NCBI GenBank assembly: GCA_024695105.1
Contig: JAILIV010000076.1
Coordinates: 5,156-69,155 of the forward strand
Source of the DNA: Bacilli bacterium
GTDB taxonomy: Bacteria; Bacillota_I; Bacilli_A; RFN20; CAG-826
Direction: 5' to 3'
DNA length: 64,000 bases
The position numbers and the translations under genes were made by a program. Shown here piece by piece: positions 1-34,312 of the stretch (position 1 is the first letter of the stretch; every line of letters starts with the position of its first letter). A model generated the notes under the pieces. That model made no database searches. It was not told the DNA's origin and saw nothing but the letters and a program-made list of their open reading frames with translations.

Positions 1-3000
1 CCCTTGACGTCACCTACTCGAACCTTCTCTCGGCCGAAGACTGGGCCAAGGAAGGCGAGACGATGCAAGACATCTTGACCCTTGCCACGCGTGGTTTGGA
101 CATTTCCAATTTGGATTTCTTCTCACCCAGCGTCATCGATTTGATGCGTTCCATTTCGCAGTCGATGATGTTCTTTTCGCCCGGATATGACGAACAGGGC
201 GCGGTCGCGTTGGACGAAGGAGGAGAAGTCGTCCGCGACTATACCTTCCCCGTCTTCGTCCGCGACAAACTCTTGCTGTCGTTGACGACGAAAGACAGCC
301 TCTCCTTGTTTACGGATTACCCGGATTTGGTGGTGGAGATCGGCGGGACGAGCGATACCGTGGCAAACCATCTCGCCACGATTACCAATTGGGATAAGAA
401 AGAATCCCTCGACGCGAAACTTGCCTTATGCTCCACGTTTGCGGAGTCCTTGACGTTAATGAAAACCCCCGCGGAATGGGATACTGAGTTCACGAAGCTC
501 GGCAGGGCCCTCGCCGCCGTCCAATCCATCGGTGGTTTGGATGGGTTCGCGACGTTCAACCCCGAGACCATTCCTTCCTTGTCAATGGCCATCACCGCGA
601 TTTGTCAGACCCAAGCCTTCGGTCCGGTGCTGATCGGAAACATCTTCAACCGTGCCTTTAGTTCCGCCTCTTTGCCGGAGGAAATCCGTGGATCGGGTGA
701 CGTCAAGCCGAACTTCGGTTGGTATTTCCGCAACGCGAACGATTTCCTCGCGGCGAAGAAAGCCGGCGCGACCCAGACGGAACTCGATGCCATCGTGGCG
801 CAGCGTCTCGATGAGGTCTCCGGCTTGATGAACCTCGTCTCCGCGACCCTTGGCAACGACAAGATCAAAGACGGGGATGGCAACTTCAACCTGAGCTTTG
901 GCACGTTGGACGTGGATGGCTTCCTCCGCCCCGTTTTGACCGCCGCGGTGGATTCGAAGGTGTTCAATCCGAACTCTCCTTCCGATATGTATTCCGATTC
1001 CACTCCCGTCCCGGAAACCACCTTATTCCATAACCTCCTGCTCACCTTCATGAAGCGCTCGGGCGTCTTCGTGGATGGCAGTGGGGCGCCCATCGCCGAT
1101 TACATGACCCCGCTGATGGGCACGACCAAATCCCTTAGCGCCATCGTCAAAGGCGTCGGCGATTGGTATGCCGAAATCGAGAACATCTGCGAAGTGGTGG
1201 GCATGCTTCAGGCCTCCTCCTTCTTGAACGATGAGGGGCAATTCGACCTCTCTGGCTTAGAGGACCTTGGCGCCTTCTTCGCCAAGCCGGGCGCCAGCGA
1301 GGAGCTTTGCTTCCTAATCAATGGCATTCAGGAAAGCGAGCTGTTCTTCCGCTGCCTCCCGCCGAAACTCGACCAAGCCCTCAATAACGGCCTAAGCGCC
1401 CTTTCCGTCGCCAACATCGCCGACGACTTAAAGTGCGCCGACTTCTTCTATTCGAAAAAGGATGGCGATTTGGCGCCGTATACCGAAGAAGAGGTGGCGA
1501 CGTTGATCCACGTCTTCGCCGACATTTCCCAGTGCATGAATCTGGATTTGACCGATTTGACCAAACTCGACGTCGAGCCTCTTGTGTCCGCCTTGCGCGA
1601 GATGGGTGCGTCCAACGTCTTTAACTCCAACAAAGAGAAGTCCGCGACGGTCTTCGGGAGCAAAGGCGACCCGCTTTCCAAACGCTCGGGCTTAACCGCC
1701 TACCAGTCGCTCCTTTGTGACATCGTCTTGGTGGATTCCCTCGAGGATTATTATTACTTCAACCTTTCCCCGAAGGATTTGGCCGCGACCGCGAACTACA
1801 CCAACGCCAAGGGCAAAATCGCCTACTATGTGCCGCGCCTATTGCCCGCGCTTTCCGACGAAGGCATGACGCGCACGAAGTTCCTAGAGGCCGCGGACCG
1901 CTACATCGTGAACGAACTCGGTGGCATCTTCGACGTCTTGAAGCAGAAACAGTTCGTGGATTTCATCAACGGAACCGCCGCCTTCGAGGACCTCACCGAG
2001 GCGAGCTTCACCACGTTGTTGCATTCCTTGAACGATTGCACGTTCTACCGCGATTGCGTTCCCAATGCCTTCTATGACGCGTTGATCGTGAAGAACACCA
2101 TTGGCATCGCCGGGGTCGACTTCACCACCGCGGACGTCTTCTTCTCCTATTACTACTATGAGGGGAACGTCTTCTCCTCCACGCGCAAGGCCACCCCGAA
2201 CTTCGAGATGCCTTTCTATGGCCCGGAGATCGACCACATCGGCATGCTTTACTCCTTGTTGAAGGAGAACAAGGATTCCATGTCCGACCTTCACATGGAC
2301 TCCGTCGACCCGATCATCTTCCGCAACGTCTTGCTGGAACTCCACGACTCTTACGTCTTCCATGAAGCCGCGAAGGATGCCCGCCACGATCCGGCCTATA
2401 GCCCGATGGCGAAGCAATTCCATGACCTGACCGTCTTCGAGCAGTTCATCTATAAGGTTTTCGTCGACACGACCCTCTTCCAATCCAACTTCAACGCCCG
2501 CAAAGACTATGCTTACGTCCTGGCTTATGGCGATGAAGGCGCCTATTACAAGATGCATGACCGCATCGTGGGTTATACCTCCGCCGGCACGGGCTGGATC
2601 CATCAGATCGAGGCCCTTACGACGGATGGTCGTTCCCACGCGGGCACTGACGATGATCCTTGGGTGGGCGTCGTCGAGGCCGGCAAGAGGTCGGGCATCT
2701 TCAACTCCAGTTCGGAAGTCGGCGTCGACTACGAAGTGTTGAACAAAGTCTCGCCGAAGCAGGTCAAAACCTTGCTTTACGCGATTAACCAATGCACGTT
2801 GCTCTCGGATTTGCTTCCTAACGCCGTGGGTGATCTGCTTGGCGTCAACGACGAAGGCAAAGGTATTGGCCTCGACCAGTACTCCAACTTGGAACGTACG
2901 TACACCACCTATGTGGGGAAGAGCGTGTTCGACGTGACCGCCCTCGCCGAGTTCTTCCTTGACGGCGACACGAGCAAGGCGTTCCAAGACATTTCCACGG

Positions 3001-4574
3001 TCACTTTCCCCGTCGCAAGCAATCCTTCCGGCCATTACACGGTCACTTTGAAGGACGATTCCGACGTCACCTCTTGCATCCCCATGACTTATGAGGGCGG
3101 GAAAGCCACCTTCGTGACCGAAGGGCTGCCTCAGGCGTTTAAGATCACGCTTGGCACGGGCTATGTGATCGGTGGCGACGTCGTCACCTTGACCAATCTC
3201 GCCTCCTTCGATATCGGCGCGGATGGCTTCGCGACCAAGAGCATCAAGGCCATCGGTTACCTGCTCTCCTCCGTATATCGTGGCGAAAGGCCGGGAAGCT
3301 GTTACTTCTCTTTCACCAACACCGACGGCAGCTTGGCCAACTTCTTCAGCGACGATAGCGACTACACGCACTCCACGTATGGCTTGCTTGGCCTATTTGG
3401 CCTATCGGGTTTCTATGACCGCGAACTTAATTCCTCCAATGTCTTCGTTACCGCGGGGGACGGGGACTATAGCGCCGCTTCCTACACGTTCTATAACGCC
3501 CTCAACTTCAAAGTCGCCGTTCCGGTCAACATCTCGTTGGACCTTTCCGCCATCTATCCGGGCGTGAAGATCACCCTTCCGAACGAGACCACGATCTCCA
3601 TCAGCGACCACGTGGGTTCCGGCTCCACCGCCGAATCCCACATGGAGACGATCCACGGTATCTTCTCCAGTCTCAACGGCATCGAGGACTATGTGCGCGA
3701 GGCACGTTGGTTCGACTTGCATGCCGCCGACGTCGGCACCTTCGACGTCTATAATGGCTACCAGGGGACCGCGCTAAACGCCACCAGCGTCGGTGGTGTG
3801 GATATCACCAACCCGGCCTACCGCTACCTGCTTGCGATGTGGATCGATAACGCCTTCACTTTGGCGAGCGAGGACGCCGCCATCAAATCCATCCAAGGCG
3901 CGCTCGCCGCGAAGGAAATCACCTATTCGATCACCGTCGCCGACGACGCCACCCATACCACGACTTACGAAGGAACGAACGTTTCTCCGAAGTTCGCGAC
4001 GGAAATCTTGGCCAACCTGGTCACGCACTGCGAGCAGAACAAGGCCGACATGGTCGACCTCGCTTATGCGACGGCTACCGCCACTTCGCCGATGGTCACT
4101 TCCTATAAATACACGCGCATTGGCGACAAGACCAACAAGGTCTCGACGCAAGCTGGTCTGCATGACGATCTCTACGCCAGCGATTGCGCCAAGCTCACCC
4201 CGGCCTATTTGACCGAGGTCTCCAACGCGTTCGACGCGATGCGCATCGTATGCAAAGACTCGCCCTCTTCCGCGGAGAAGGCCGCCCTTAAGGCCGACTT
4301 CGAGTCGTTTGGAGTCGAGGCCACGAAGTTCATCGACATGTTCTACCTCGCCTCGCTTTATGACCACATGGTCTACTATGGCGACCGTCCGCTGAATCCC
4401 TTGCTCGTGTCCGTTCCTTGGATCATCAACGACCAACTCGGGCTAAAGGACCAAGGCTTCTTCAAGATCGCGACGTTAAAAGTCACCGACTTCCCAATCG
4501 TGGGCCAGGACGGCATGATCGAAAATGTCGCCACCGCGTGGAGCTACGCGAACATCGCGTCGACCATCGCATGA
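1..4574 (+). CDS. giant acidic protein of unknown function, 5'-truncated by the window edge (at least 1,523 residues visible)
   Basis: The frame with codons starting at nt 3 is open to TGA 4572-4574. There is no stop upstream of the first ATG at 63 (LDVTYSNLLSAEDWAKEGET precedes M). Composition is protein-like throughout (D/E/S/T/F/Y/A-rich, few K/R/C). I recognise no motif, TM segment or repeat. The stop overlaps the next start (ATGA). Confidence 0.8.
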   Translation, partial: LDVTYSNLLSAEDWAKEGETMQDILTLATRGLDISNLDFFSPSVIDLMRSISQSMMFFSPGYDEQGAVALDEGGEVVRDYTFPVFVRDKLLLSLTTKDSLSLFTDYPDLVVEIGGTSDTVANHLATITNWDKKESLDAKLALCSTFAESLTLMKTPAEWDTEFTKLGRALAAVQSIGGLDGFATFNPETIPSLSMAITAICQTQAFGPVLIGNIFNRAFSSASLPEEIRGSGDVKPNFGWYFRNANDFLAAKKAGATQTELDAIVAQRLDEVSGLMNLVSATLGNDKIKDGDGNFNLSFGTLDVDGFLRPVLTAAVDSKVFNPNSPSDMYSDSTPVPETTLFHNLLLTFMKRSGVFVDGSGAPIADYMTPLMGTTKSLSAIVKGVGDWYAEIENICEVVGMLQASSFLNDEGQFDLSGLEDLGAFFAKPGASEELCFLINGIQESELFFRCLPPKLDQALNNGLSALSVANIADDLKCADFFYSKKDGDLAPYTEEEVATLIHVFADISQCMNLDLTDLTKLDVEPLVSALREMGASNVFNSNKEKSATVFGSKGDPLSKRSGLTAYQSLLCDIVLVDSLEDYYYFNLSPKDLAATANYTNAKGKIAYYVPRLLPALSDEGMTRTKFLEAADRYIVNELGGIFDVLKQKQFVDFINGTAAFEDLTEASFTTLLHSLNDCTFYRDCVPNAFYDALIVKNTIGIAGVDFTTADVFFSYYYYEGNVFSSTRKATPNFEMPFYGPEIDHIGMLYSLLKENKDSMSDLHMDSVDPIIFRNVLLELHDSYVFHEAAKDARHDPAYSPMAKQFHDLTVFEQFIYKVFVDTTLFQSNFNARKDYAYVLAYGDEGAYYKMHDRIVGYTSAGTGWIHQIEALTTDGRSHAGTDDDPWVGVVEAGKRSGIFNSSSEVGVDYEVLNKVSPKQVKTLLYAINQCTLLSDLLPNAVGDLLGVNDEGKGIGLDQYSNLERTYTTYVGKSVFDVTALAEFFLDGDTSKAFQDISTVTFPVASNPSGHYTVTLKDDSDVTSCIPMTYEGGKATFVTEGLPQAFKITLGTGYVIGGDVVTLTNLASFDIGADGFATKSIKAIGYLLSSVYRGERPGSCYFSFTNTDGSLANFFSDDSDYTHSTYGLLGLFGLSGFYDRELNSSNVFVTAGDGDYSAASYTFYNALNFKVAVPVNISLDLSAIYPGVKITLPNETTISISDHVGSGSTAESHMETIHGIFSSLNGIEDYVREARWFDLHAADVGTFDVYNGYQGTALNATSVGGVDITNPAYRYLLAMWIDNAFTLASEDAAIKSIQGALAAKEITYSITVADDATHTTTYEGTNVSPKFATEILANLVTHCEQNKADMVDLAYATATATSPMVTSYKYTRIGDKTNKVSTQAGLHDDLYASDCAKLTPAYLTEVSNAFDAMRIVCKDSPSSAEKAALKADFESFGVEATKFIDMFYLASLYDHMVYYGDRPLNPLLVSVPWIINDQLGLKDQGFFKIATLKVTDFPIVGQDGMIENVATAWSYANIASTIA

Positions 4575-5176
4575 GGAAATTGCCCCTAGAAGGCTCAATG
4601 GGGGAGGAAAAGGACCTTTCCTCCCTTTTCCTTGCGGGGCTCTTCCCCTTGTCTGACCCCAATGGCTTTAAGACGCTTTATGATCAGTTTAGGAAGGATC
4701 ATCCCGGGGCGGACCATTATCCCTACGCTTTGTGCTTGGGCGAGCTAAACCGTTCCAGCGATGATGGTGAGCCCGGTGGCACCGCGGGCCGACCGATGCT
4801 TTCGTTGCTATTGGAAAAAGAAATCGACGGGGTTTTGATCGTGGCCCGGCATTTTGGGGGTACGAAACTTGGCGTCCCCCGTCTTCGCCGTGCCTTCCTT
4901 TCCAGCGCTGAGCAAGCCATCGCCCACGCCCGATTTGGCGTGTACCAAGAAATGCTTCGTTATGACGTCGAAGTCGATTATCCAACTTATGAAATCCTAA
5001 GAAATGGCGCAAATCGCGGATTGTTTTCGCTGCAAAATCCCGTTTTCGACATAAAAGTGCATGCGGAAATCCGCAGTGGTGATAGACTAGACGGGCTGCT
5101 CCAAAGGCTCGGTCTTTATGGCTTGGAACTTGGGGAGCCACGAATCGAAAGAGTCTTAGAGGAGGTAACCGTATGA
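4571..5176 (+). CDS. yigZ: YigZ/IMPACT-family protein (UPF0029)
   Basis: Family signature SDDGEPGGTAGRPML...VLIVARHFGGTKLG. The internal ATG at 4571 was chosen because it overlaps the upstream TGA (ATGA) and removes an Arg-rich out-of-context N-terminus in the ORF-track version. Confidence 0.75.
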   Translation: MRKLPLEGSMGEEKDLSSLFLAGLFPLSDPNGFKTLYDQFRKDHPGADHYPYALCLGELNRSSDDGEPGGTAGRPMLSLLLEKEIDGVLIVARHFGGTKLGVPRLRRAFLSSAEQAIAHARFGVYQEMLRYDVEVDYPTYEILRNGANRGLFSLQNPVFDIKVHAEIRSGDRLDGLLQRLGLYGLELGEPRIERVLEEVTV

Positions 5177-6447
5177 TTTCACCCGAAGAATTCCAAAAAC
5201 GTCGGGCATCCTTCCTTTCCCTGATGGACGACAATTCCTTTGCCGTCATCTTCTCCGGCGTCGCCAAAAAGTGCTCCGCCGATGAAACCTATCCGTTTGA
5301 GGTGAACCGCAATTTCCATTATCTAACCGGCATCACCCAAGAGGATTCCGTGCTCCTTTTGATCAAGTCCGATGGCGAAGAGCGCGAGTACCTTTTGATC
5401 TCTCCATTCGATCCCGTGAAGGAGAAGTGGTATGGCAAACGGTTGACTCCCGAAGAGGCAACGGCCGTCTCTGGCGTGCGCAACGTCTTGCTACGCACCG
5501 CCCTCACTTCCCGCATCGAGACCATCCTCACTGGAACGTATTCGGATTTCCCGCCCATCGCCAAAGTCTATTTGGACTTGGAGAAAGAACAAAAAGTGGC
5601 CGAGGAGACCTACGTTGAGGACTATAGGAAATCCTTGGAAGTCCTGTGCCCGCATCTTTGCACGATGGACGCCTACCCGCTGATCGTTTCGCTGCGCATG
5701 GTGAAGTCCCCCGCGGAAATCGAAGAGCTTCGCGCGGCGATCGAGGTCACCAAAGTGGGCATCACTTCCGCGATGGCCCGTATCCGTCCTGGCGTTTACG
5801 AGTATGAGATCGCCAATGAGTTCCATAAGGTCATCAACGATTGCTCCGGGTACCAAGGCACCGCCTTCCCGACCATCTTGGCTTCGGGCGTGCACGCGGC
5901 GTGCTTGCATTATCCCACCCCCGTCGGGACGGTTGGGGCAGGGGAGTTGGTCTTGATGGACCTTGGTTCACGGAACAACCTCTATTGCGCGGACGTCAGC
6001 CGTACCGTTCCCGCTGACGGCGTGTTCTCCGAGTTGCAGAAGACCATTTATTCCATCGTTTTGGCGGCCAATAAGGCCGTGGCCAACTTTGCCCGTCCCG
6101 GCCGCACTTTGGCCGAGCTTCAGTCTTTCACCGTGGAGTATTTGGCTTCAGAATGCTTGAGCAAACGGCTCATTCAAAACAAGGAAGACATCAAGAACTA
6201 TTATTTCCATGGGGTTTCCCACCATATTGGATTAGACACTCATGACCCAGGCGACCCAAACAAAAAGAAACCCTTGGTCGCGGGCAACGTCATCTCCGAT
6301 GAGCCGGGTCTTTATTTCAAGGAACTAGGCATTGGCGTGCGCATCGAAGACGACCTCCTCATTACCGAGGATGGCTGCGAAGTGCTCACCAAAGACATCA
6401 TCAAGGAAGTCAACGAGATCGAGGCCTTCTATCGGAAAAGCCATTAA
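5173..6447 (+). CDS. pepP: Xaa-Pro aminopeptidase, M24B family
   Basis: M24B metal-ligand motifs are present: DLGSRNNLYCADVSRT, HGVSHHIGLDTHD, EPGLY, GVRIEDD. The ATG overlaps the yigZ TGA (ATGA at 5173-5176). Confidence 0.85.
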   Translation: MISPEEFQKRRASFLSLMDDNSFAVIFSGVAKKCSADETYPFEVNRNFHYLTGITQEDSVLLLIKSDGEEREYLLISPFDPVKEKWYGKRLTPEEATAVSGVRNVLLRTALTSRIETILTGTYSDFPPIAKVYLDLEKEQKVAEETYVEDYRKSLEVLCPHLCTMDAYPLIVSLRMVKSPAEIEELRAAIEVTKVGITSAMARIRPGVYEYEIANEFHKVINDCSGYQGTAFPTILASGVHAACLHYPTPVGTVGAGELVLMDLGSRNNLYCADVSRTVPADGVFSELQKTIYSIVLAANKAVANFARPGRTLAELQSFTVEYLASECLSKRLIQNKEDIKNYYFHGVSHHIGLDTHDPGDPNKKKPLVAGNVISDEPGLYFKELGIGVRIEDDLLITEDGCEVLTKDIIKEVNEIEAFYRKSH

Positions 6448-6528: not shown

Positions 6529-8022
6529 ATGAAGAAATATATCTTGGCCATAGACCAAGGCACGACTTCGACGCGTGCCATTTTCATCGACAAAAACGGG
6601 GACGCCCTTTTCAAGGCCCAGCGTCCCGTCGACGTGTTATTCCCTAAGCCCGGTTGGGTGGAGGTGGACGCCGACCGCGTTTGGATTTCCGTCATCGACG
6701 TCATCAACGAGTTGCTCGTCGTTTCCGGCGCGTCGATGGACGAGGTGGCCGCGATTGGCATTACCAATCAGCGTGAGACCGCCGTCGTTTGGGATAAGAA
6801 AACCGGGAAGGCGGTGCATAACGGCATCGTGTGGCAGTCCAAGCAAACCCAACAGCTTTGCGATGAGCGTGAGGACAAAACGGACTTCATCCAAAGCCGC
6901 ACTGGCTTGCGCATGAATCCCTATTTCTCCGCCTCGAAGATCCGTTATATCCTCGACCACATCGAAAACGGGCAAGCTCGGGCAGAAGCGGGGGAACTCC
7001 TTTTCGGGACGATCGACAGTTGGATCATTTATAAACTCACCAAGGGCAAATCCCATCTCACGGATGTCTCCAACGCCTCCCGCACGATGCTCTTCAACAT
7101 CTTCACGATGAAGTATGACCCCAAATTAGCCGCGATCTGGGACATTCCTCTTTGCATGCTGCCCGAAGTCAAAGACAATACCGACTTCTACGGGACCGCC
7201 TCCTTTTTCGCGGGCGAAGTCCCCATCTGTGGCGTGGCGGGTGACCAACAAGCCGCGTTGTTCGGGCAATGCTGTTTCCACAAAGGCGAATCGAAGAACA
7301 CCTATGGGACGGGTTGCTTCATGCTGATGAACATCGGCGACAAACCCATTTTGTCCAAAGCCGGTTTGCTTACGACCGTCGCGTGGAGGGAAAACGGTGT
7401 CACCACCTATGCGTTGGAAGGCTCCGTTTTCATCGGTGGCGCGATCGTCCAGTGGCTCCGCGACCAGATGCGGTGGTTTGAGGATTCCGCCGACTCCGAA
7501 TATTATTCTTCCAAGGTGCCGGACACCGCGGGAACCTATTTCGTGCCCGCTTTCGTAGGACTAGGAACTCCATGGTGGGATGACGAATGCCGTGGCGCGA
7601 TCTTCGGTTTGACCCGTGGCGCGGACCGTCATCACCTAAGCCGCGCGGGGCTAGAGTCCATCGCCTACCAATCCAAAGACGTGATCGAGGCGATGAAGCG
7701 CGAAGCGGGACTCGAGCTTACTTCGCTGCGCGTCGATGGCGGAGCCTCGGGCAACGCCCTTTTGATGCAATTCCAGGCGGACATCCTCCAATGTGAGGTC
7801 GCGATCCCCGCCTGCTTGGAAACGACCGCCCTTGGGGCCGGGTATTTCGCTGGGCTATCGTGTGGTTTCTGGAAAAGCAAAGAAGAGATCCTCGATAAGT
7901 GTCGGACCGTCGCGCGCGTCTATGTTCCGCATATGGACCCGGAACGCTGTGCCGAGCTTTACGACGGATGGCTATGCGCCGTGGAGGCGGCACGGGCGTT
8001 CAAACCCAAACACGGAGCATGA
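6529..8022 (+). CDS. glpK: glycerol kinase
   Basis: N-terminus MKKYILAIDQGTTSTRAIFIDKNG and FGGY-family motifs run throughout (GITNQRETAVVWDK, GVAGDQQAALFGQ, VDGGAS). The start was moved to ATG 6529 to match the canonical N-terminus. Confidence 0.95.
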   Translation: MKKYILAIDQGTTSTRAIFIDKNGDALFKAQRPVDVLFPKPGWVEVDADRVWISVIDVINELLVVSGASMDEVAAIGITNQRETAVVWDKKTGKAVHNGIVWQSKQTQQLCDEREDKTDFIQSRTGLRMNPYFSASKIRYILDHIENGQARAEAGELLFGTIDSWIIYKLTKGKSHLTDVSNASRTMLFNIFTMKYDPKLAAIWDIPLCMLPEVKDNTDFYGTASFFAGEVPICGVAGDQQAALFGQCCFHKGESKNTYGTGCFMLMNIGDKPILSKAGLLTTVAWRENGVTTYALEGSVFIGGAIVQWLRDQMRWFEDSADSEYYSSKVPDTAGTYFVPAFVGLGTPWWDDECRGAIFGLTRGADRHHLSRAGLESIAYQSKDVIEAMKREAGLELTSLRVDGGASGNALLMQFQADILQCEVAIPACLETTALGAGYFAGLSCGFWKSKEEILDKCRTVARVYVPHMDPERCAELYDGWLCAVEAARAFKPKHGA

Positions 8023-8825
8023 ATTCCCATCATTATGGCGGGACGGTCGTCATCGCCCCGTATAACGAAGAATCTTATTTACGCGCCTATCGCGAAGCCT
8101 TCCCTGAGGAGAGGTTTCGTTCGTTGACCTTAGAGGAAGTGGTCGGATGCTTTGGCTTTGACGTATTGGGCGAATTGGACGTCGAGGAACGTTTGATACG
8201 GTATGTGCGTCAGATGACCGCGCCTTCGTATAAAAGCCCAGAGCTTACGCCTTATCTGCCCTTGGTCCAAAAATGGGAAAAGGAAGGCAAATTGCGCCGT
8301 AAAGAAGACCCAAAATCAATTTTCTGCGGAAAAACGATCCTGATTCGTGGCTATTATTCGGGCAAACCGATCGCCGAGGCGCTTCAGGATTTGCCGAACA
8401 TTTCATTGAATTGGGATCTGGGGCGGCCGGTCTTAAAGGAAGAAGAGCTGCCACGGCAGGAGTGCCGCGATATCTATGAGGCTTTGCATAAGGCGGAGTA
8501 TGAGATGTTCGAGCTTTTTTACCAAGGCTTCTCCCCAGACAACGTCTACCTTAATTCCGACGTGAACCTTCCCCGCGATTACAGCGGAAAGTTAGGGAGG
8601 CTAAAACGTATTTGGGGCCCATTCGTCCCAAGCGATGGCGTGGCGATCCGCTTGGAGACCGATCATTCCTTTTCATGGTGGAAGGATCCGTTTAGCGAAA
8701 AGGCTTTGGCCGAACTCCATATGGTTTCGGCGGAAACCTTGAAGAAACGGGAGGAAGAGGATGAGCGTTGCTTCTTGCGCCACCCGAATCTTCGCGCGCG
8801 CTTCTATTTTCCGAAGGAAGAGTAG
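8019..8825 (+). CDS. hypothetical protein (268 aa)
   Basis: The ATG overlaps the glpK TGA (ATGA 8019-8022). Composition is coding-like. I recognise no family. Confidence 0.6.
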   Translation: MNSHHYGGTVVIAPYNEESYLRAYREAFPEERFRSLTLEEVVGCFGFDVLGELDVEERLIRYVRQMTAPSYKSPELTPYLPLVQKWEKEGKLRRKEDPKSIFCGKTILIRGYYSGKPIAEALQDLPNISLNWDLGRPVLKEEELPRQECRDIYEALHKAEYEMFELFYQGFSPDNVYLNSDVNLPRDYSGKLGRLKRIWGPFVPSDGVAIRLETDHSFSWWKDPFSEKALAELHMVSAETLKKREEEDERCFLRHPNLRARFYFPKEE

Positions 8826-8842
8826 GGTATAGTAGGAAAGCC

Positions 8843-9973
8843 ATGGACGAGAAGACCGCGTTTCTACAATTGCTGGGGTCCTTCCCAGGGGCAGAACGCC
8901 TGGACAAGGAATTCCTTTACCGCGCCTATCAAGTCGCAAAAGACGGCGTGAAGGACATGCAGGCCATGGCGCCAGGCATTCGGCCCATCGCGGTCAACCC
9001 TTTGGCGCTTACCCTTTATCTAATCAACGAACATTCCTTTTACCTTTCCGCCCATCCCGAGAACACGGAAGCGGAACTGGTGGAAAAAGACGACTACCTG
9101 GCCTTTTTGGCTTCGATCGCGCTCGATAAATACACCACCAACGAGCACTTGGCGTACCGCAACGACAAACTTACGTCCCGCTTCTCGCCCTTCATGTCGA
9201 CGATCGAGCTCTATCTGAACTTCATTTTGGGCATGCTTTCCCGTTATAAGAAAAACGACCCCAAGGAAACGCTTGTGGTCGACATCATGAACAAGGGCTT
9301 TTCCATCGCCAAATGCGTGGCGATGCTTTTGGAAGGCGGTTTCGAGACCGAGGCATTCTCCACCTGGAGGACGCTTCATGAGAACGAATGCATATTGCAC
9401 GTCCTCACCAAAAACGGCCCCACGGCGATTGAAGCCTACCTTCGCCACATGACGTACGCCGCCGCGTTCCGTGGAGCGATTGAGAGCAAAGAAGCCACGG
9501 ATAAGATCTTCGTGGAAATCAAAGAGAATATGCATGGGCTTGGGCTTAAATCCAAAGACATGAAACGTTATATCGAATACGGATGGCTTTACTCCGTGAA
9601 ACGGGAGGAAGGCGAGGATTTGAAACTCAACTTCCGTGATGGGGTGCAACGCTGCGCCGGGCTTTCCGATTATTCCAAAATCTACGAGATGTCCTCTGAA
9701 ATCGCCCACAGCTCCCCCTTGTTGATCTACTCGCGGAAAAACTACATCTTCCATATCGCTTTGCTGAATCTATACGAATCCTTCTTCCGTTTGGAACGCG
9801 TGTTCACCACGATCTACATGTCCACGATCACGGAAGAGGAACGGCAACGTTACGTCCAAATGCGCAACCTCTATTATTGGGAACTTCAGGCCGCGTACCG
9901 CGCGATTCAGGTTTCCTTCGCGCATATGGCGCAGACGAAACGCGGGGAGGATGAGGACCCCACCATCCATTGA
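8843..9973 (+). CDS. hypothetical protein (376 aa), possibly DUF5677-like C-terminal half
   Basis: SD AGGAAAG at 8834-8840 precedes ATG 8843. The patterns WRTLHENECILHVL and YEMSSEIAHSSP resemble DUF5677 by eye only. Confidence 0.6.
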   Translation: MDEKTAFLQLLGSFPGAERLDKEFLYRAYQVAKDGVKDMQAMAPGIRPIAVNPLALTLYLINEHSFYLSAHPENTEAELVEKDDYLAFLASIALDKYTTNEHLAYRNDKLTSRFSPFMSTIELYLNFILGMLSRYKKNDPKETLVVDIMNKGFSIAKCVAMLLEGGFETEAFSTWRTLHENECILHVLTKNGPTAIEAYLRHMTYAAAFRGAIESKEATDKIFVEIKENMHGLGLKSKDMKRYIEYGWLYSVKREEGEDLKLNFRDGVQRCAGLSDYSKIYEMSSEIAHSSPLLIYSRKNYIFHIALLNLYESFFRLERVFTTIYMSTITEEERQRYVQMRNLYYWELQAAYRAIQVSFAHMAQTKRGEDEDPTIH

Positions 9974-9974
9974 T

Positions 9975-11141
9975 ATGAACGTTACGGGTTCTTTGAATAA
10001 TGGGGTCATGACCCTTTTCCTACAAGGAAAGATTGATTCCGCGAATGCGCAGGAAGCGGAAAAAGCCATCCGTCAGTGTCTGGCGAAGAAAACCTTTGAT
10101 CGCCTGGTCTTGGATTGTTCCGAGCTCTCTTATATCACCAGCGCGGGTTTGCGTTTGGTGTTGGCCCTTTGGAAGGAAAACCCGACCTTAAGCGCGCAAA
10201 ACGTTATCCCCGACGTTTATGAAATTTTCGACATGACTGGCTTCACAAAGATGATGGACGTGCAACGGAGTTTGCGCACGTTGTCCGTGGATGGCCTCCC
10301 GTTGGTGGGGGAAGGATTCACCGCCAATGTGTATCGTCTCGACGCGGAAACCATCGTCAAGGTTTTCAAGAAGCATCGCTCCCTTGAATCGGTCCGCGCG
10401 GAAATCGACGCGGCGAAGAAGGCGTTCATCTACGGCATTCCCACCGCCATTTCCTTCGACGTGGTGAAAGTGGGAGACCATTTGGGGCTGGTGTTTGAGA
10501 TGCTGCACTGCGCCACGCTTCGCGATTTGATTTTGGCCCATCCCGAACGCTTCGAAGAATACAAGAAGATGTACGCCGACCTTTCGTACCGAATCACCCA
10601 CACCAACGCGGAAGGGTCGGGCTTGCAACATTGCAAAGGGCCCCTACTGGAAAAACTCTCCGTCCTTTCGACCGTCTTGTCCCCGGAGGAGTATTCCAAG
10701 CTCATGGGGATGGTCGAGGCCCTGCCCGAGACCGAGACGCTTACGCACGGGGATTTTCACATCAAGAACATCCTTGTGCAAAACAACGAGCCGATCCTCA
10801 TCGATATGGACGCCGTGGCGTTAGGCCACCCCATCTTCGAGTTAGAGGGGATCTATCTTTCGTTCCAGGCCTATAACGAGGCCGACCCCACCAACGCGAC
10901 CCGTTTCTTTGGGGTTCCGCAACAAATCCTCGACGAGCTTTTCGATGCGTTACTAAAACGTTACTTCCCCGATAAGGACGAAAAAGGGCTCGCGGAGGTC
11001 TATGACAAAATCGTGTTGCTCGGCACCGCGCATTTGGCCTATCAGACCATCCATTACCAACGCGACGAGAATGGTCGGTTGGACAAGGCACTTACTCGGT
11101 TACGGAACCTTCTGTCCCGTTACGACACCCTCGAACTATAA
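9975..11141 (+). CDS. STAS domain fused to an aminoglycoside-phosphotransferase/choline-kinase-like (APH-fold) kinase domain
   Basis: The N-terminal ~105 aa look like an anti-sigma antagonist (LDCSELSYITSAGLRLVL). The C-terminal part has a Gly-rich loop plus Lys (GEGFTANVYRL...IVKVFKK), the catalytic loop HGDFHIKNILV, and IDMD. ATG 9975 lies 1 nt after the upstream stop. Confidence 0.75.
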   Translation: MNVTGSLNNGVMTLFLQGKIDSANAQEAEKAIRQCLAKKTFDRLVLDCSELSYITSAGLRLVLALWKENPTLSAQNVIPDVYEIFDMTGFTKMMDVQRSLRTLSVDGLPLVGEGFTANVYRLDAETIVKVFKKHRSLESVRAEIDAAKKAFIYGIPTAISFDVVKVGDHLGLVFEMLHCATLRDLILAHPERFEEYKKMYADLSYRITHTNAEGSGLQHCKGPLLEKLSVLSTVLSPEEYSKLMGMVEALPETETLTHGDFHIKNILVQNNEPILIDMDAVALGHPIFELEGIYLSFQAYNEADPTNATRFFGVPQQILDELFDALLKRYFPDKDEKGLAEVYDKIVLLGTAHLAYQTIHYQRDENGRLDKALTRLRNLLSRYDTLEL

Positions 11142-25087: not shown

Positions 25088-26347
25088 ATGAATTTTATCT
25101 TTGTTTCACCGAATTTCCCTGTCCGTTACTTCAAATGGGTGGAATCTTTGCGTGCCCGAGGCATCAATGTCCTTGGAATTGGCGATTCTCCCCACTATGA
25201 CCTCCATCCGCGGCTGCTTGCGGCGCTGAATGAGTATTACTACGTATGGGACATGACCTCGAAGGAGGAAATGGACAAGGCGGTCGCCTATTACCAAAAC
25301 AAATACGGGAAGATTGATTTCATCGAGTCCAATAATGAATGGTGGCTAGAAGAAGATGCTCGGCTTCGGGCGAAGTTCGGTGTTGATACTGGCTTCCATC
25401 CCGAGGACATGGCGCACATTAAAGCCAAGTCCCAAATGAAAGAGTTTTTCCGAAAAGGCGGCGCGAAGACGATGCGCTACTTGGTCGTTTCGGGTCCCGA
25501 AGACAAAGAGAAGGCCCTCCAGTTCATTGGAGAAGTAGGGTATCCCGTTTTCGTCAAACCCGACATTGGTGTAGGGGCTGGCGACTCCTATTCCTTAAAA
25601 ACAAAAGAGGACGTGGATCGGTTTTTTGAGAAAAAGCTTCCCGAACCGTACATCATGGAAGAATTCATCGATGGGCGTATCGTGTCCTTCGACGGTATCT
25701 GTGACTCCAAGGGTGACGTGGTGTTTTGCTGCACCGACCATTTCCCCGTCCCCATAGACCAGGTGGTCAACGAAGGCTTGGACCATGTGTATTTCAACAT
25801 CCCCTTCTCCAAGCCGATGATCGACGTGGACCCTGTGAAGTTCGAAAAGGTCGGTCGTTCCGTGGTGAAGGCCTTTGGCATCAAACGCCGTTTCTTCCAT
25901 ATCGAGTTCTTCGTCTTAAATTCGGACAAGCCGGGCTTTGCCAAAAAAGACGAGTTTGTCGCGCTTGAATGCAACATGCGTGCACCGGGAGGCTATACCC
26001 CAGACCTTATCGACTATGGTAGCTCGGTTTCCGTCTATGACATTTACGCTGATGTCATCGCCTATGACCGCTGCAACGTCGATTTGACTCTTCCCAAGTA
26101 CATCGCCGTTGCTTCCCACAGGAAAGATTCCTTGAAATACCGTTACAGCCTCGACGAGGTTCGCGCGAAATACGGCTACGCCATTCGCATGGAAGGGCGT
26201 TACCCCGCCCATATCGCGGCTGTCATGAACGACTATTACGTTTTCGCGGTGTTCGATACGATTGAGCAAGCCAAAGAGTTCGACGCCTTCGTGCGAGAAA
26301 AGCAGACGCGTCTCCAAGAAAGCGTCCTTATGCCAAATCCGGATTAG
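25088..26347 (+). CDS. ATP-grasp domain protein (carboxylate-amine ligase-like)
   Basis: ATP-grasp-like core: YPVFVKPDIGVGAGDSY...MEEFIDGRIVSFDG...ECNMRAPGG. Confidence 0.7.
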   Translation: MNFIFVSPNFPVRYFKWVESLRARGINVLGIGDSPHYDLHPRLLAALNEYYYVWDMTSKEEMDKAVAYYQNKYGKIDFIESNNEWWLEEDARLRAKFGVDTGFHPEDMAHIKAKSQMKEFFRKGGAKTMRYLVVSGPEDKEKALQFIGEVGYPVFVKPDIGVGAGDSYSLKTKEDVDRFFEKKLPEPYIMEEFIDGRIVSFDGICDSKGDVVFCCTDHFPVPIDQVVNEGLDHVYFNIPFSKPMIDVDPVKFEKVGRSVVKAFGIKRRFFHIEFFVLNSDKPGFAKKDEFVALECNMRAPGGYTPDLIDYGSSVSVYDIYADVIAYDRCNVDLTLPKYIAVASHRKDSLKYRYSLDEVRAKYGYAIRMEGRYPAHIAAVMNDYYVFAVFDTIEQAKEFDAFVREKQTRLQESVLMPNPD

Positions 26348-27213
26348 GCGAAATAACGGGTAACCAACTGTGATGCGGCGTCGGGGGAACTCGCGCCGCT
26401 TCCTTTTTCTTTCGCCTTACCTTCTTGGAACCAAAGCACGTCGGAGTCCCCATATTCCTTTGCATAGGCATCGCGGTCTTCTTGGGAAAGATAAGACGCC
26501 TCTAGGCGCGCCACGGCTTTGCCAACGTGGATGGCACGGCTATAAACGTTATCCATATAGAAGGTGCTTTGGCCTGCGTCATAGTAGGCAAGGCAATTGT
26601 TTTTCGAAACGTATTTTTGGAATGCGGAAAGCGTCCTGAAATTGAAAATGAGGGGGAAATTGAGGAGATTTTTGAAATAATTCTCCAAGTTTTGCAAGGA
26701 AGTTCGCTCGGGAAGGAAATTGAGGAAACAAGCTTTTTCGGGATCTTTTAGGAGGTAGAAGGATGGGGTGACGTAGTCGTGCATGACGGAGGTGTAGGAC
26801 GGAAAGGTCGAGGTAATTTTAGATATGTGGGCATAACTTTGGGTCCTAGTTGTTTCAGAGAAATCTAGGGCGTGGACCTCGATGCCAGAGTCCAAGAAAA
26901 AGGAGACCAAATCATCGTGGGCCCTCTCGCAGGAAGAACAGTTTTCTTGATGCAAGAAGAGCACAGCGCTGCGCCCTTGGTTTATTTCGCGGATGATGGC
27001 GTCCGCGTCATCGTTTCGGGACACTTCACCATAGGCATAGGCAATGCCTTCTTTGCCAAAGTTCTCCCCATTGCGGGTGACGTAAGCTAGGCCGTCTCCG
27101 TCGCTGAAAGGGAAAATGGAGAAATCTGGATGGCTTCGCGAAGAAGAGCCAGTGCAAGAAAAAGAAAGCCCCGCGATCAAAGGCAAAACGAGGAAGAGGA
27201 CAGGCTTTTTCAT
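26344..27213 (-). CDS. lipoprotein with a thioredoxin-like CxxC motif
   Basis: Signal peptide and lipobox-like MKKPVLFLVLPLIAGLSFSC. The motif VLFLHQENCSSCERAHDDL is present. The ATG overlaps the upstream stop (ATGA). Confidence 0.7.
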   Translation of the reverse strand: MKKPVLFLVLPLIAGLSFSCTGSSSRSHPDFSIFPFSDGDGLAYVTRNGENFGKEGIAYAYGEVSRNDDADAIIREINQGRSAVLFLHQENCSSCERAHDDLVSFFLDSGIEVHALDFSETTRTQSYAHISKITSTFPSYTSVMHDYVTPSFYLLKDPEKACFLNFLPERTSLQNLENYFKNLLNFPLIFNFRTLSAFQKYVSKNNCLAYYDAGQSTFYMDNVYSRAIHVGKAVARLEASYLSQEDRDAYAKEYGDSDVLWFQEGKAKEKGSGASSPDAASQLVTRYFA

Positions 27214-32424: not shown

Positions 32425-32949
32425 ATGATCACAATCCAAATCCTCGGCCTCGATCAGTTCGTCGTGGGCCGCTATTCACGAGAGAATTCCGAAGGCTTGG
32501 CCTTGGCTTTTGGCCGTCCGGAGTCCGACATCTCCTTCTTCGCCCCCAACGCCATGATGTTTCATAACGGCGTGGAGCAGACGAGTTGGAACACGCTCGT
32601 CGTCGTCTTGGCGCCTTCCGGGCTCAAGGGCAAAGAAAAGGGAGTCGCGGAATACCTGACCAAGACGTTGAGCCTTTTCTCGATCAACGTCGAGGTGGTT
32701 TTCCAATATTTTGACGAATCTTCCCACTATGCTTCCGTGAATGAGGCGTATCCTCGCTTTATCACCACCGAGGAAATCCACCAGGATGAGGCCTCCCTTG
32801 AATTTGGCGACGTCCCTGAGCAGATGGATGGGGAGGAAGAAGACGAGATGGATTCCATCGAGTCGAAAGAAACCGGCGAGGTTTACCTCGGCGACGCCTT
32901 CGAAGGTTTCGAAGAGCGGTACGAGAAACTCACCAAAAAGAAAAACTGA
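32425..32949 (+). CDS. small protein with an acidic C-terminal tail, possibly DUF1904-like
   Basis: The N-terminal ~100 aa (MITIQILGLDQFVV...VEVVFQYFDE) resemble DUF1904 by eye. The C-terminal 70 aa are strongly acidic. Confidence 0.55.
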   Translation: MITIQILGLDQFVVGRYSRENSEGLALAFGRPESDISFFAPNAMMFHNGVEQTSWNTLVVVLAPSGLKGKEKGVAEYLTKTLSLFSINVEVVFQYFDESSHYASVNEAYPRFITTEEIHQDEASLEFGDVPEQMDGEEEDEMDSIESKETGEVYLGDAFEGFEERYEKLTKKKN

Positions 32950-32968
32950 CATTCGGAGGTACGATCCT

Positions 32969-34312
32969 ATGTTAAAAGAGTTTGAATTGAGCCTTGAGAT
33001 CCTCAATGACGTCTTGGATGAAAAGACGCCTTTCGCCGAGGCGCTTCGCAAACAGTTCCAAACCCATGCCGACATCCGTCCGTTGCGTGGACAAGTCGCC
33101 GGCCTCGTTGGCTGTGAGCTTCGCCATCAGATCTATTTCGACTACATGACCCGGAAACTCGAGGATTTCACGTTGTCGGAACGTCGTTTGCTGTGCCTAG
33201 TATTGGCCAATGCCTTTTATTACCGGCGCTTCGACGTGGACCAAACCCGTCATGAATTGCTCGCCGTGGTCGGCGAAGAGAAGATGGGCCGCTGCCAAGA
33301 GTTGATCGATTTGGCCTCCACCCCCGAGAACTACATCCCCGCCGACGTGGACCGCAAGAGCCCGTTATATCTTTCGCTTCGGTTCAACGTTCCCGAGTGG
33401 ACCGTCAAAATCATCGCCCATTTCGGTGGATCGGCCACGTATAACTCGCTGCGCAAATTGTCCCGTCAATTGACGACTACCTTGCGTGTCCGTACCTCGG
33501 AAGTGGCTTTGGCTCGGGTGTTCGAGAATCCTGATTACACCTCCACCCCGGTCAATGGCATCGTCTTCTACAAAGGAAACGTCCCCCTTCGCAAGATCCC
33601 CGAGTTCCAAAAGGGCCAATATTTCCCCGAGAAGATGCTCACGAAGCACATCATCGACGAAAACCTCGTCGCCGATCCGGGCGAAGTGCTGTTGTATAAC
33701 GGTAACAAGGATTCTTCCTTGGAACGCGAATTGATCGAGACCTATGGGGCTAACGTTGGGTTAAACATTGCCACCAGTGGTTCCGTCGACGAGAAGATCG
33801 AAGTCAGCAAGCTCATCAAGGCCAAGGGGTTGAAGAACGTGAACTTCTTCTCCGCCCCCGACCCTTTGAACATGGAGGCTTCCGTTTCCCGCATGGCCAA
33901 GTTGGTCCTCGTATCGCCTGAATCCACCAACTTCGACCTCATCCCGACCTCCCCGGATTACCTGCTTCATTTCGATACCCAAAAGATGGACGAGATCATC
34001 GACGGGGAAAAGAAGGCTTTGGAGGGTTGCTCCAAATACGTCGAGGAGGGCGGCAAACTCGTGTATGTCGTCTATACCATCTCCAAAAAGGAGGGCCGTC
34101 AGAACGTTTCCGAGTTCTTGAAAGCCCACCCCGAGTTCACCTTGGTCAATGACCATCAATACTTCCCTCATGAGGAACTGGAGACCGCGGCCTACGTCGC
34201 CGTCTTGCTTAAAGGGGAGAAGGAGTTGACCATTTCTACCCCGTTTGCGGAAATCTCCGCGCCCCTTCCGACCACCAGCGCCGTAACCACCCCAACCGCC
34301 ACCTCCAAATGA
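32969..34312 (+). CDS. RsmB/Sun (NOL1/NOP2)-like protein with degenerate active site
   Basis: NusB-like N-terminal domain plus an m5C-methyltransferase fold that aligns colinearly to RsmB (GGKLVYVVYTISKKEG versus GGxLVYaTCSxxxEEN). SD GGAGGT at 32955-32960. It sits in the syntenic position between priA and rlmN. Confidence 0.75.
   Translation: MLKEFELSLEILNDVLDEKTPFAEALRKQFQTHADIRPLRGQVAGLVGCELRHQIYFDYMTRKLEDFTLSERRLLCLVLANAFYYRRFDVDQTRHELLAVVGEEKMGRCQELIDLASTPENYIPADVDRKSPLYLSLRFNVPEWTVKIIAHFGGSATYNSLRKLSRQLTTTLRVRTSEVALARVFENPDYTSTPVNGIVFYKGNVPLRKIPEFQKGQYFPEKMLTKHIIDENLVADPGEVLLYNGNKDSSLERELIETYGANVGLNIATSGSVDEKIEVSKLIKAKGLKNVNFFSAPDPLNMEASVSRMAKLVLVSPESTNFDLIPTSPDYLLHFDTQKMDEIIDGEKKALEGCSKYVEEGGKLVYVVYTISKKEGRQNVSEFLKAHPEFTLVNDHQYFPHEELETAAYVAVLLKGEKELTISTPFAEISAPLPTTSAVTTPTATSK

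What the first reader, a model, noticed from the sequence alone, without database searches (positions are those of the whole stretch)
1..4574. Orphan giant acidic protein (over 1,520 aa, still open at the window edge) translationally coupled to yigZ and pepP
**What the sequence shows**
- The reading frame is open from nt 3, so the true gene is longer than the 1,503-aa ORF listed in the track.
- Across about 4.6 kb I can find none of the following:
  - a Walker or other catalytic motif
  - a signal peptide
  - a TM helix
  - a cell-wall anchor
  - tandem repeats or Ig/cadherin-like periodicity
  - NRPS/PKS motifs
- The usual explanations for a giant bacterial gene therefore do not obviously apply.
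- Composition is strongly acidic and aromatic-rich (D, E, F, Y, S, T), with few K, R or C.
- Its TGA overlaps the yigZ ATG (ATGA at 4571-4574), and the yigZ TGA overlaps the pepP ATG (5173-5176).

**Inference**
- The overlaps imply co-translation with an IMPACT-family protein and an Xaa-Pro aminopeptidase.
Basis: seen in the sequence. Interest (0 to 1): 0.7.

Follow-up and report, generated by a model that had tools for sequence, protein, structure and literature searches.

The report
Membrane-anchored giant helical-repeat protein
The open frame is the last 1,523 residues of a 2,424-residue, very acidic protein found only in uncultured gut bacteria predicted to lack a cell wall; it has four membrane helices just upstream of the window, then hidden ~240-residue helical repeats, and most likely forms a long rod on the cell surface.

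Summary
The coordinates, the two ATGA overlaps, the acidic composition and the lack of catalytic motifs are all confirmed.

- **Anchor.** The full protein is 2,424 aa. It starts with four transmembrane helices upstream of the window. Loop charges across the family place the large C-terminal part outside the cell.
- **Repeats.** Residues ~848-1892 are a cryptic tandem array of a ~240-aa helical module (profile-profile E down to 8e-18). This protein has 4 full copies and 1 partial copy. Relatives have 2-10, which explains homologues of up to 3,921 aa.
- **Fold.** AlphaFold models are confident (pLDDT 85.5 and 78.7). They show a helical-repeat body with β-rich parts in a variable C-terminal region. 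No specific match appeared in PDB, BFVD, Pfam, NCBIfam, PHROGs or PADLOC.
- **Distribution.** About 147 clusters among 1.84 billion representatives. Every named genome record is an uncultured gut or rumen Bacilli MAG, including Candidatus Enteromonas (order RFN20).
- **Operon.** The giant-yigZ-pepP order is conserved. yigZ has no Shine-Dalgarno sequence in 13 of 13 loci, so coupling is plausible. The yigZ/Xaa-Pro-peptidase pairing itself also occurs in E. coli.

Verdict: a real, uncharacterised family, best read as a surface rod. It is a new variant of giant repeat surface proteins; its function is inferred, not shown.

The parts
3..4574 (+). C-terminal 1,523 codons plus the stop of a 2,424-aa giant acidic protein (residues 902-2424). 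The first 901 residues, including the four-helix membrane anchor, lie upstream of the window.
   Evidence: Open frame. 100% identity to P0001 residues 902-2424.
3..554 (+). Repeat unit 1, residues 848-1085; only residues 902-1085 are in the window.
   Evidence: The unit HMM tiles P0001. Profile-profile self-matches.
543..1259 (+). Repeat unit 2, residues 1082-1320.
   Evidence: For example, 1084-1250 matches 1558-1720 with E 2.4e-17.
1254..1985 (+). Repeat unit 3, residues 1319-1562.
   Evidence: For example, 1306-1489 matches 1553-1734 with E 4e-14.
1950..2741 (+). Repeat unit 4, residues 1551-1814.
   Evidence: For example, 1208-1364 matches 1673-1850 with E 8.4e-18.
2370..2411 (+). Residues 1691-1704 inside unit 4. 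The alignment places the extra ~480-1,450 residues of longer relatives here (P0003, P0007, P0008, P0009).
   Evidence: Insert positions. In those relatives the unit HMM tiles the whole expanded region without gaps, giving 6 or 10 full copies.
2733..2975 (+). Partial fifth repeat, residues 1812-1892; only model positions 16-62 of the unit are matched.
   Evidence: A short direct similarity, 1572-1607 vs 1824-1859, E 1e-4.
2976..4571 (+). Non-repeat C-terminal region, residues 1893-2424. Mixed α/β, with strands at about residues 1863-1966, 2069-2100 and 2207-2228. This is the least conserved part of the protein.
   Evidence: Secondary structure from the AlphaFold model. Conservation profile. No self-match with probability above 41%. 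A profile search found only a fragment of a family member.
4571..5176 (+). yigZ-like IMPACT/UPF0029 gene. Its ATG overlaps the giant gene's TGA, and it has no Shine-Dalgarno sequence.
   Evidence: PF01205, E 1.2e-22. The N-terminus aligns with orthologues; junction survey.
5173..6447 (+). pepP-like Xaa-Pro aminopeptidase (AMP_N + Peptidase_M24). It has its own GGAGG site upstream and overlaps the yigZ stop.

Best explanation
The frame encodes the distal two-thirds of a single-copy, lineage-specific giant envelope protein of Enteromonas-like uncultured gut Bacilli.

**Architecture**
- The protein is inserted in the membrane by a conserved N-terminal four-helix domain that lies outside the window.
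- The fourth helix follows a strongly basic loop and acts as an N-in/C-out signal anchor. The remaining ~2,200 very acidic residues are therefore exported.
- The exported part is a helical-repeat rod built from a juxtamembrane helical region and a tandem array of a ~240-aa helical module.
- The array grows and shrinks during evolution (2-10 copies), which sets the rod's length.
- The rod ends in a fast-evolving mixed α/β region that is the likely contact surface.

**Proposed role**
- Hosts of this group are predicted to lack peptidoglycan, and their order lacks sortases. The protein would give the cell an anionic, protruding surface structure for adhesion, spacing or protection.

**Expression**
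- The gene is transcribed with yigZ and pepP.
- yigZ has no ribosome-binding site and is probably translated by ribosomes that reinitiate after finishing the giant frame.

**Shown versus inferred**
- Shown: gene length, TM helices, repeats and their copy-number variation, helical fold, restricted distribution, operon junction pattern.
- Inferred: outside location, rod shape, surface function, reinitiation.
For: - **Full length and anchor:**
- **Topology:** across about 20 members, loop 1 carries +1 to +3 and 0 negative charges, and loop 3 carries +6 to +14. The N-terminus, loop 2 and the segment after TM4 are net acidic or neutral.
- **Repeats:** 94 profile-profile matches with probability of at least 90%. 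Offsets cluster at ~240, ~475 and ~710 aa over residues ~740-1860.
- **Copy number:** the unit HMM tiles 4, 6 or 10 full copies back to back in proteins of 2,424, 2,953 and 3,907-3,921 aa. Among 101 long members the range is mostly 2-10.
- **Fold:** AlphaFold2 gives pLDDT 85.5 and pTM 0.73 for residues 1201-2400, and 78.7 and 0.57 for residues 1-1200. Both are mostly helical. The only Foldseek neighbours are generic α-solenoids (BIRC6 arch, karyopherins, CAND1, β-catenin) at TM about 0.1.
- **Architecture conserved:** 98 of 101 long members carry the TM domain.
- **Hosts:** the named relatives are uncultured gut and rumen Bacilli MAGs, including Candidatus Enteromonas and Alloenteromonas. Enteromonas is placed in order RFN20, family CAG-826 (PMC8035907). 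That family is predicted to be peptidoglycan-deficient, and the order lacks sortases (PMC10868615).
- **Fast evolution, weakest at the distal end:** the window's EzrA is 75% identical to that of rumen MAG RGIG8459, whose giant homologue is only 44% identical. Mean column conservation is 0.56 in the TM domain and 0.23-0.37 over the last 300 residues.
- **Precedent:** extracellular rods of parallel α-helical repeats are described for Giant1-3 of Apilactobacillus kunkeei (PMC12863079).
- **Operon and coupling:**
Against: - Location rests only on the positive-inside rule and composition. No topology predictor or experiment was available.
- I could not inspect model coordinates or PAE, so 'rod' is inferred from the helical-repeat content and the solenoid-type Foldseek neighbours.
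- α-solenoid giants are typically intracellular scaffolds in eukaryotes.
- A single-copy, syntenic, lineage-wide gene whose most conserved part is the membrane domain looks more like a housekeeping envelope component than a classical variable adhesin.
- The window also encodes EzrA, so a wall-less state for this particular organism is not proven.
- The window organism's placement in family CAG-826 rests on record names and protein similarity, not on a phylogeny.
- No binding domain, lectin fold or enzyme was recognised in the C-terminal region.
Confidence: 0.55

Rival explanations
1. Housekeeping 'protein wall'. The protein is not an adhesin. It is an essential anionic exoskeleton or envelope scaffold that replaces teichoic acids and peptidoglycan in these wall-less cells. 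Its conserved membrane domain works with the neighbouring Rce1-like protease, TraX and thioredoxin.
For: - The gene is found once per context, sits at a fixed position in every lineage examined, and has no second copy in the window.
- The membrane domain is the most conserved part, with invariant polar residues (G33, G37, W38, W156, H157, R169, N201).
- Net charge is -81 to -287 across members.
- The divergent Trx-TraX-Rce1-like cluster is kept even in a 31% GC lineage.
- The host family is predicted to lack wall and teichoic-acid synthesis (PMC10868615).
Against: - The ectodomain evolves fast, and repeat number varies freely. That is unusual for an essential scaffold.
- Gene order around the locus is conserved for clearly unrelated genes too, so neighbourhood is weak evidence.
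- Nothing was tested about essentiality or abundance.
Confidence: 0.2
2. Cytoplasmic, membrane-tethered helical-repeat scaffold that acts together with YigZ. This would be a bacterial analogue of the eukaryotic pair GCN1 (a giant HEAT-repeat protein) and IMPACT.
For: - yigZ is fused to the end of the giant frame in all 13 loci and depends on it for initiation signals.
- The fold resembles HEAT/ARM solenoids.
- From general knowledge: IMPACT binds the ~2,670-aa solenoid GCN1.
Against: - This topology would put loops carrying up to +14 charge outside the cell, against the positive-inside rule in every member.
- K+R is only about 7%.
- IMPACT binds GCN1 through its RWD domain. None was detected in this YigZ, where Pfam found only PF01205.
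- E. coli couples yigZ to pepQ in the same way without any giant protein.
- Foldseek similarity is generic (TM about 0.1).
Confidence: 0.08
3. One reading: an orphan, non-repetitive, soluble novel-fold protein with no anchor.
For: Inside the window there is no TM segment, no simple sequence repeat and no database hit.
Against: - The TM anchor lies in the upstream 901 residues.
- Repeats are detected at E down to 8e-18, with copy-number variation.
- 147 related clusters exist.
Confidence: 0.02
4. Not a real gene: a chance open frame or a pseudogene in GC-rich DNA.
For: Long antisense ORFs also occur inside it, for example 1884-3371 on the minus strand. This shows that long open frames arise easily in this DNA.
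Against: - The frame is conserved at the protein level down to 22% identity in lineages from 31 to 57% GC.
- Structure prediction from a shallow alignment is confident.
Confidence: 0.01

Closest known systems
Giant1-3 of Apilactobacillus kunkeei (very large extracellular proteins of fructophilic lactic acid bacteria; PMC12863079)
   Same: - Giant proteins of small-genome Bacilli.
- The bulk is made of tandem α-helical repeats, modelled there as stiff extracellular rods.
- β-rich terminal domains.
- Repeat regions that vary between strains.
   Different: - Those proteins are 3,000-8,000 aa.
- They have an N-terminal β-solenoid binding domain and C-terminal DUF5776 domains, in a walled host.
- Here the N-terminus is a four-helix membrane domain, and no Pfam domain is present.
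- The repeat here is ~240 aa.
- Homology was not tested because their sequences were not at hand. None appeared among the 147 hits of the exhaustive profile search.
Repeat-stalk surface adhesins of Gram-positive bacteria (serine-rich repeat proteins, LPXTG-anchored proteins)
   Same: - The overall logic of anchor, repetitive stalk of variable length, and variable distal region.
- Acidic composition with few cysteines.
   Different: - No signal peptide of the usual kind, no LPXTG motif and no serine-rich or Ig-like repeats.
- The anchor is at the N-terminus in the membrane, which fits hosts predicted to lack wall and sortase.
ARM/HEAT α-solenoids (karyopherins, CAND1, β-catenin, BIRC6 helical arch)
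   Same: The only structural neighbours found. Both kinds are stacked helical repeats.
   Different: - TM-scores are about 0.1 and the best E-value is 3.8e-4.
- No ARM or HEAT Pfam match.
- The repeat unit here is ~240 aa, against about 40-50 aa in ARM/HEAT proteins (general knowledge).
- Those proteins are cytosolic or nuclear.
Four-helix membrane domains fused to exported domains: CvpA / Colicin_V family (PF02674) and DedA/VTT (PF09335)
   Same: - Four TM helices with a basic 'RG..RG' first loop.
- Weak sub-threshold Pfam matches at fixed positions: VTT_dom in 4 of the 11 members scanned, Colicin_V in 1.
   Different: - All scores are far below the gathering thresholds.
- Comparison with E. 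coli CvpA and DedA is not significant.
E. coli pepQ-yigZ gene pair
   Same: An IMPACT-family gene joined to an M24 Xaa-Pro peptidase gene, with overlapping stop and start codons.
   Different: - The order is reversed: pepQ then yigZ in E. coli, yigZ then pepP here.
- There is no giant gene upstream in E. coli.

Membership tests
LPXTG / sortase-anchored surface proteins | C-terminal LPXTG sorting motif followed by a hydrophobic segment and a basic tail | tested here: not met
   There is no LP.TG anywhere in residues 902-2424, and no hydrophobic C-terminal segment. The RFN20 order is reported to lack sortases (PMC10868615).
LPXTG / sortase-anchored surface proteins | Cleavable N-terminal Sec signal peptide | tested here: not met
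   The N-terminus is a conserved four-helix membrane domain. No signal-peptide predictor was available. The residues after TM4 do not keep an AXA cleavage site across members.
ARM/HEAT repeat proteins | Sequence match to ARM/HEAT repeat profiles | tested here: not met
   No Pfam family was found at E up to 1 in the 11 members scanned, apart from unrelated weak hits.
ARM/HEAT repeat proteins | Superposable solenoid structure | tested here: inconclusive
   Foldseek best hit is BIRC6 at E 3.8e-4 and TM 0.13; karyopherins score E of at least 0.02. This is a generic helical-repeat resemblance only.
CvpA / Colicin_V (PF02674) | Profile match above the gathering score | tested here: not met
   One member scores 10.5 bits against a cutoff of 29.3. 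hhalign against E. coli CvpA gives probability 0.3%.
DedA / VTT domain (PF09335) | Profile match above the gathering score | tested here: not met
   Scores are 15.5-21 bits against a cutoff of 33.9 in 4 members, always over TM3-TM4. hhalign against E. coli DedA gives probability 0.1%.
A. kunkeei Giant1-3 family | N-terminal β-solenoid domain and C-terminal DUF5776 domains | tested here: not met
   No DUF5776 or any other Pfam hit. The N-terminal 1,200 residues are helical and begin with TM helices.
A. kunkeei Giant1-3 family | Sequence homology of the helical repeats | not tested
All 147 hits of the exhaustive profile search have the architecture described here.
NRPS/PKS, toxins, phage or defence proteins | Any catalytic, phage or defence profile match | tested here: not met
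   Pfam, NCBIfam, PHROGs and PADLOC return nothing. There is no Walker A or HExxH motif.
IMPACT / YigZ family (downstream gene) | UPF0029 (PF01205) domain above the gathering score | tested here: met
   80.4 bits against a cutoff of 27. The equivalog model TIGR00257 scores 91 bits against a cutoff of 168, so this is a family member, not a proven YigZ equivalog.
Xaa-Pro aminopeptidase PepP (downstream gene) | AMP_N plus Peptidase_M24 domains | tested here: met
   AMP_N scores 94.1 bits and Peptidase_M24 169.7 bits, both above threshold. The equivalog model NF008131 scores 244 bits against a cutoff of 465.

The most novel reading that the evidence does not exclude
The protein is the main building block of a proteinaceous, strongly anionic outer coat that stands in for the lost peptidoglycan and teichoic-acid wall in these gut Bacilli. 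Its coat thickness would be set by the number of 240-aa helical modules. Its conserved membrane domain would be serviced by the neighbouring Rce1-like protease, TraX and thioredoxin. YigZ would be produced in fixed proportion to it through reinitiation. That would be a new kind of bacterial cell envelope.
Probability: 0.15. Interest if true: 0.75.

Novelty: new variant of a known kind. Interest (0 to 1): 0.45.

Why it matters
**Why it matters**
- These reduced-genome bacteria (Enteromonas-like, order RFN20) occur in human, ruminant and poultry guts but are uncultured. How cells predicted to lack a wall and sortases present a surface is unknown.
- This gene takes up about 0.6% of a ~1.2 Mb genome, is kept at a fixed place across the lineages examined, and has no annotated domain.
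- Knowing that it is a membrane-anchored array of helical modules gives a concrete candidate for their surface architecture.
- It adds a second, apparently independent, example of α-helical-repeat rods in giant proteins of Bacilli.
- It offers a clean natural case of a gene (yigZ) that seems to rely entirely on termination-reinitiation after a 7.3-kb frame.

**Limit**
- Function remains inferred. The general design (anchor, repeat stalk, variable end) is familiar.

Tried and rejected
**Database searches that returned nothing useful**
- Pfam, NCBIfam, PHROGs and PADLOC scans of the window part and of full-length members gave nothing above threshold.
- PDB sequence searches found nothing, whether with the single protein or with profiles of both halves.
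- Foldseek of both AlphaFold models against PDB, and of the C-terminal model against BFVD, gave only generic solenoid hits.
- A profile search with the C-terminal region alone, to see whether it occurs in other proteins, found only a fragment of a family member.

**Ideas tested and dropped**
- CvpA-like or DedA-like identity for the anchor: not significant.
- Plain BLAST self-comparison found only one weak internal match. The repeats became clear only with family profiles.
- The promoter and terminator scan around the operon was no better than shuffled sequence.

**Technical dead ends**
- Placing the most distant members taxonomically largely failed: there were no names in their clusters, the alignment was too divergent for a locus scan, and P0159 had no GTDB match. 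Only P0136 could be placed, in rabbit-gut Bacilli MAGs.
- The window's own protein is not in the contig index, so the upstream 2.7 kb of DNA of this exact organism was not seen. Upstream context comes from relatives.

Full report
**1. The observation**

The frame starting at nt 3 runs for 1,523 codons without a stop to the TGA at 4572-4574. The mechanical ORF list shows 63-4574 only because it starts at the first ATG. The sequence reads cATGA at 4570-4574 and tATGA at 5172-5176, so both four-base overlaps are real.

The two downstream genes are an IMPACT/UPF0029 protein (PF01205, E 1.2e-22) and an AMP_N + Peptidase_M24 aminopeptidase. They match the YigZ and PepP models of NCBIfam below equivalog level.

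The window part is acidic (net -93, pI 4.47) and poor in K, R and C. It is slightly rich in aromatics (11.3%). It has no Walker A, LPXTG, HExxH or GDSL motif and no hydrophobic segment. It has no hit in Pfam, NCBIfam or PDB sequences. As far as a reader of the window alone could see, the description is accurate.

**2. The whole gene**

A search of 5.8 billion proteins returned the window's own product as a 2,424-aa protein (P0001). The window holds residues 902-2424 exactly.

The missing 901 residues begin with four hydrophobic helices. AlphaFold2 models them as helices 4-36, 38-67, 117-163 and 174-206.

Across about 20 relatives the loop after helix 1 carries +1 to +3 and no acidic residue. 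The loop after helix 3 carries +6 to +14. The N-terminus, the 49-residue second loop and the stretch after helix 4 are acidic or neutral. By the positive-inside rule this gives N-out, both basic loops in the cytoplasm, and the ~2,200-residue acidic remainder outside. Helix 4 then behaves like an uncleaved signal anchor. This is an inference; no topology predictor was available.

**3. Hidden repeats**

Plain self-BLAST shows only one short echo, 1572-1607 against 1824-1859, at E 1e-4. I then cut the 38-sequence family alignment into 200-residue windows and compared them pairwise with hhalign.
- 94 pairs reached a probability of at least 90%.
- The best E-values were 8.4e-18 and 2.4e-17.
- Offsets clustered at ~240, ~475 and ~710 residues.
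- Coverage ran over residues ~740-1860, with nothing significant in 201-650 or beyond 1900.

An HMM of the unit (250 positions) tiles P0001 back to back at 848-1085, 1082-1320, 1319-1562 and 1551-1814, with a partial copy at 1812-1892.

The same model finds 6 full copies in P0008 (2,953 aa), in two incomplete relatives (L015 and L006), and at least 5 in the fragment P0003. It finds 10 full copies in P0007 and L005 (3,907-3,921 aa). The alignment places their extra residues at P0001 residues 1691-1704. These extra copies were not used to build the model, so they are independent detections.

Among 101 family members of at least 1,900 aa, all but one have between 2 and 10 copies, most often 4. 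The size of the gene is therefore explained by tandem duplication of a module.

**4. Fold**

With 23 rows, AlphaFold2 modelled residues 1201-2400 at mean pLDDT 85.5 and pTM 0.73. With 19 rows, it modelled residues 1-1200 at 78.7 and 0.57. Both models are mainly helical. Strands concentrate at about residues 1863-1966, 2069-2100 and 2207-2228.

Foldseek against PDB gave only generic α-solenoids.
- The BIRC6 helical arch scored E 3.8e-4 with TM 0.13.
- Karyopherins, CAND1, Nup188 and β-catenin scored E of at least 0.02.
- BFVD gave nothing significant.
- Profile searches of PDB sequences were empty.

The fold class is thus a helical-repeat array without a specific known relative.

The weak, sub-threshold Pfam matches of the membrane domain did not survive direct comparison with E. 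coli CvpA and DedA. These were VTT_dom in four members and Colicin_V in one.

**5. Distribution and host**

An exhaustive HMMER search of 1.84 billion cluster representatives, using a profile of residues 902-2100, found 147 proteins at E up to 1e-3. Most are 1,900-3,000 aa and match at the same relative position. Of the 101 that are at least 1,900 aa, 98 carry the N-terminal membrane domain. None has a name or a Pfam domain.

Genome hits are uncultured gut or rumen MAGs. They are labelled Bacilli, Candidatus Enteromonas, Candidatus Alloenteromonas, 'Mollicutes' or Erysipelotrichaceae. The window's EzrA is 71-77% identical to those of rumen Bacilli and Enteromonas MAGs.

Candidatus Enteromonas belongs to order RFN20, family CAG-826, with ~1.2 Mb genomes of 57% GC (PMC8035907). 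That family is predicted to be peptidoglycan-deficient, and the order lacks sortases (PMC10868615). The rest of the window is ordinary chromosome: PriA, LeuRS, TyrRS, GroEL, EzrA, ThiI and glycogen synthesis genes. No second copy of the repeat or the membrane domain occurs in the window.

**6. Rate of evolution**

Pairwise identity within the family is 22-66%. The window's EzrA is 75% identical to that of rumen MAG RGIG8459, whose giant homologue is 44% identical. The figures are 64% against 38-40% for RGIG3485, and 50% against 25-27% for Alloenteromonas pullistercoris.

Mean column conservation is highest in the membrane domain (0.56) and lowest over the last 300 residues (0.23-0.37). A conserved anchor with a fast-changing distal end is what one expects of an exposed protein.

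**7. Gene neighbourhood and coupling**

In all 12 contexts read from relatives at 22-52% identity, the order is thioredoxin, TraX and Rce1-like on the opposite strand, then the giant gene, then Impact_N, then AMP_N/M24. A glycerol kinase usually follows, and AddB/AddA or DUF5677 follow in several.

A 31% GC rabbit-gut MAG keeps the same arrangement, with one Mrp/NUBPL gene inserted before pepP.

The yigZ ATG lies between -17 and +4 nt of the giant stop in 13 of 13 loci. It never has a purine-rich Shine-Dalgarno sequence upstream, and the encoded N-terminus is conserved in most loci (for example MKRIPL), so the start is correct. pepP has a GGAGG-like site in 12 of 12. This supports termination-reinitiation for yigZ.

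It does not show a functional tie. E. coli joins pepQ and yigZ in the same way with a 1-nt overlap, and unrelated genes are equally syntenic here.

**8. Interpretation**

The best reading is a membrane-anchored, exported, helical-repeat protein whose length is tuned by module number and whose variable C-terminal α/β region faces the environment. The closest described analogues are the α-helical-repeat rods of Giant1-3 in Apilactobacillus kunkeei (PMC12863079). They differ in anchor, end domains and host envelope, and no homology is shown.

Whether it acts as an adhesin, a spacer or a structural coat cannot be decided. The fixed single-copy position and the conserved polar membrane domain lean towards a housekeeping envelope role. 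A cytoplasmic GCN1/IMPACT-like reading is attractive because of yigZ, but it conflicts with the charge pattern in every member.

**9. Verdict**

This is a real gene and a previously undescribed family. It is neither anchorless nor repeat-free. I rate it a new variant of a known kind (giant repeat surface proteins) and of moderate interest.

Noticed in passing
window 4546-4600, and junctions in L001, L002, L023-L031, L033: yigZ never has a Shine-Dalgarno sequence and always abuts or overlaps the stop of the 7-kb upstream frame (13 of 13 loci). pepP always has GGAGG. E. coli yigZ likewise overlaps the stop of pepQ by 1 nt. YigZ-family genes may generally depend on reinitiation.
   Followed up: partly
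upstream of the window; seen in L001 135-2065, L002 7853-9939, L023-L031 and L033 5869-7909: A divergent thioredoxin / TraX / Rce1-like (CPBP intramembrane protease) cluster sits directly upstream of the giant gene in every lineage where the upstream flank was available, including a 31% GC one. A role in processing or modifying the giant protein is possible but untested.
   Followed up: partly
window 1884-3371 (minus strand): A 495-codon antisense ORF lies inside the giant gene, together with several shorter ones. It is most likely a by-product of the codon bias of this ~56% GC gene and not a gene.
   Followed up: no
window 7899-8825 and 8768-9973: A ~270-300-aa protein with no Pfam match is followed by a DUF5677 protein. 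The pair recurs downstream of glpK in five relatives (L001, L026, L029, L030, L031).
   Followed up: no
window 9951-11141: A fused STAS + aminoglycoside-phosphotransferase-like (APH) protein. The same fusion is present in L030.
   Followed up: no
window 25088-26347, 26344-27213 (minus strand) and 32741-34312: Three sizeable ORFs (419, 289 and 523 aa) have no Pfam match at E up to 1e-5.
   Followed up: no
window 57315-59027: A clear EzrA homologue (E 5e-66) is present in an organism whose closest named relatives (RFN20 family CAG-826) are predicted to lack peptidoglycan. This bears on how these cells divide.
   Followed up: no
L012 and L015 (contigs JAFVCC010000036 and JAFVCC010000122 of MAG RGIG5035): The giant gene of one MAG is split across two contigs that break inside or next to the repeat array. 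The repeats evidently fragment short-read assemblies, so copy numbers in MAGs may be underestimated.
   Followed up: no
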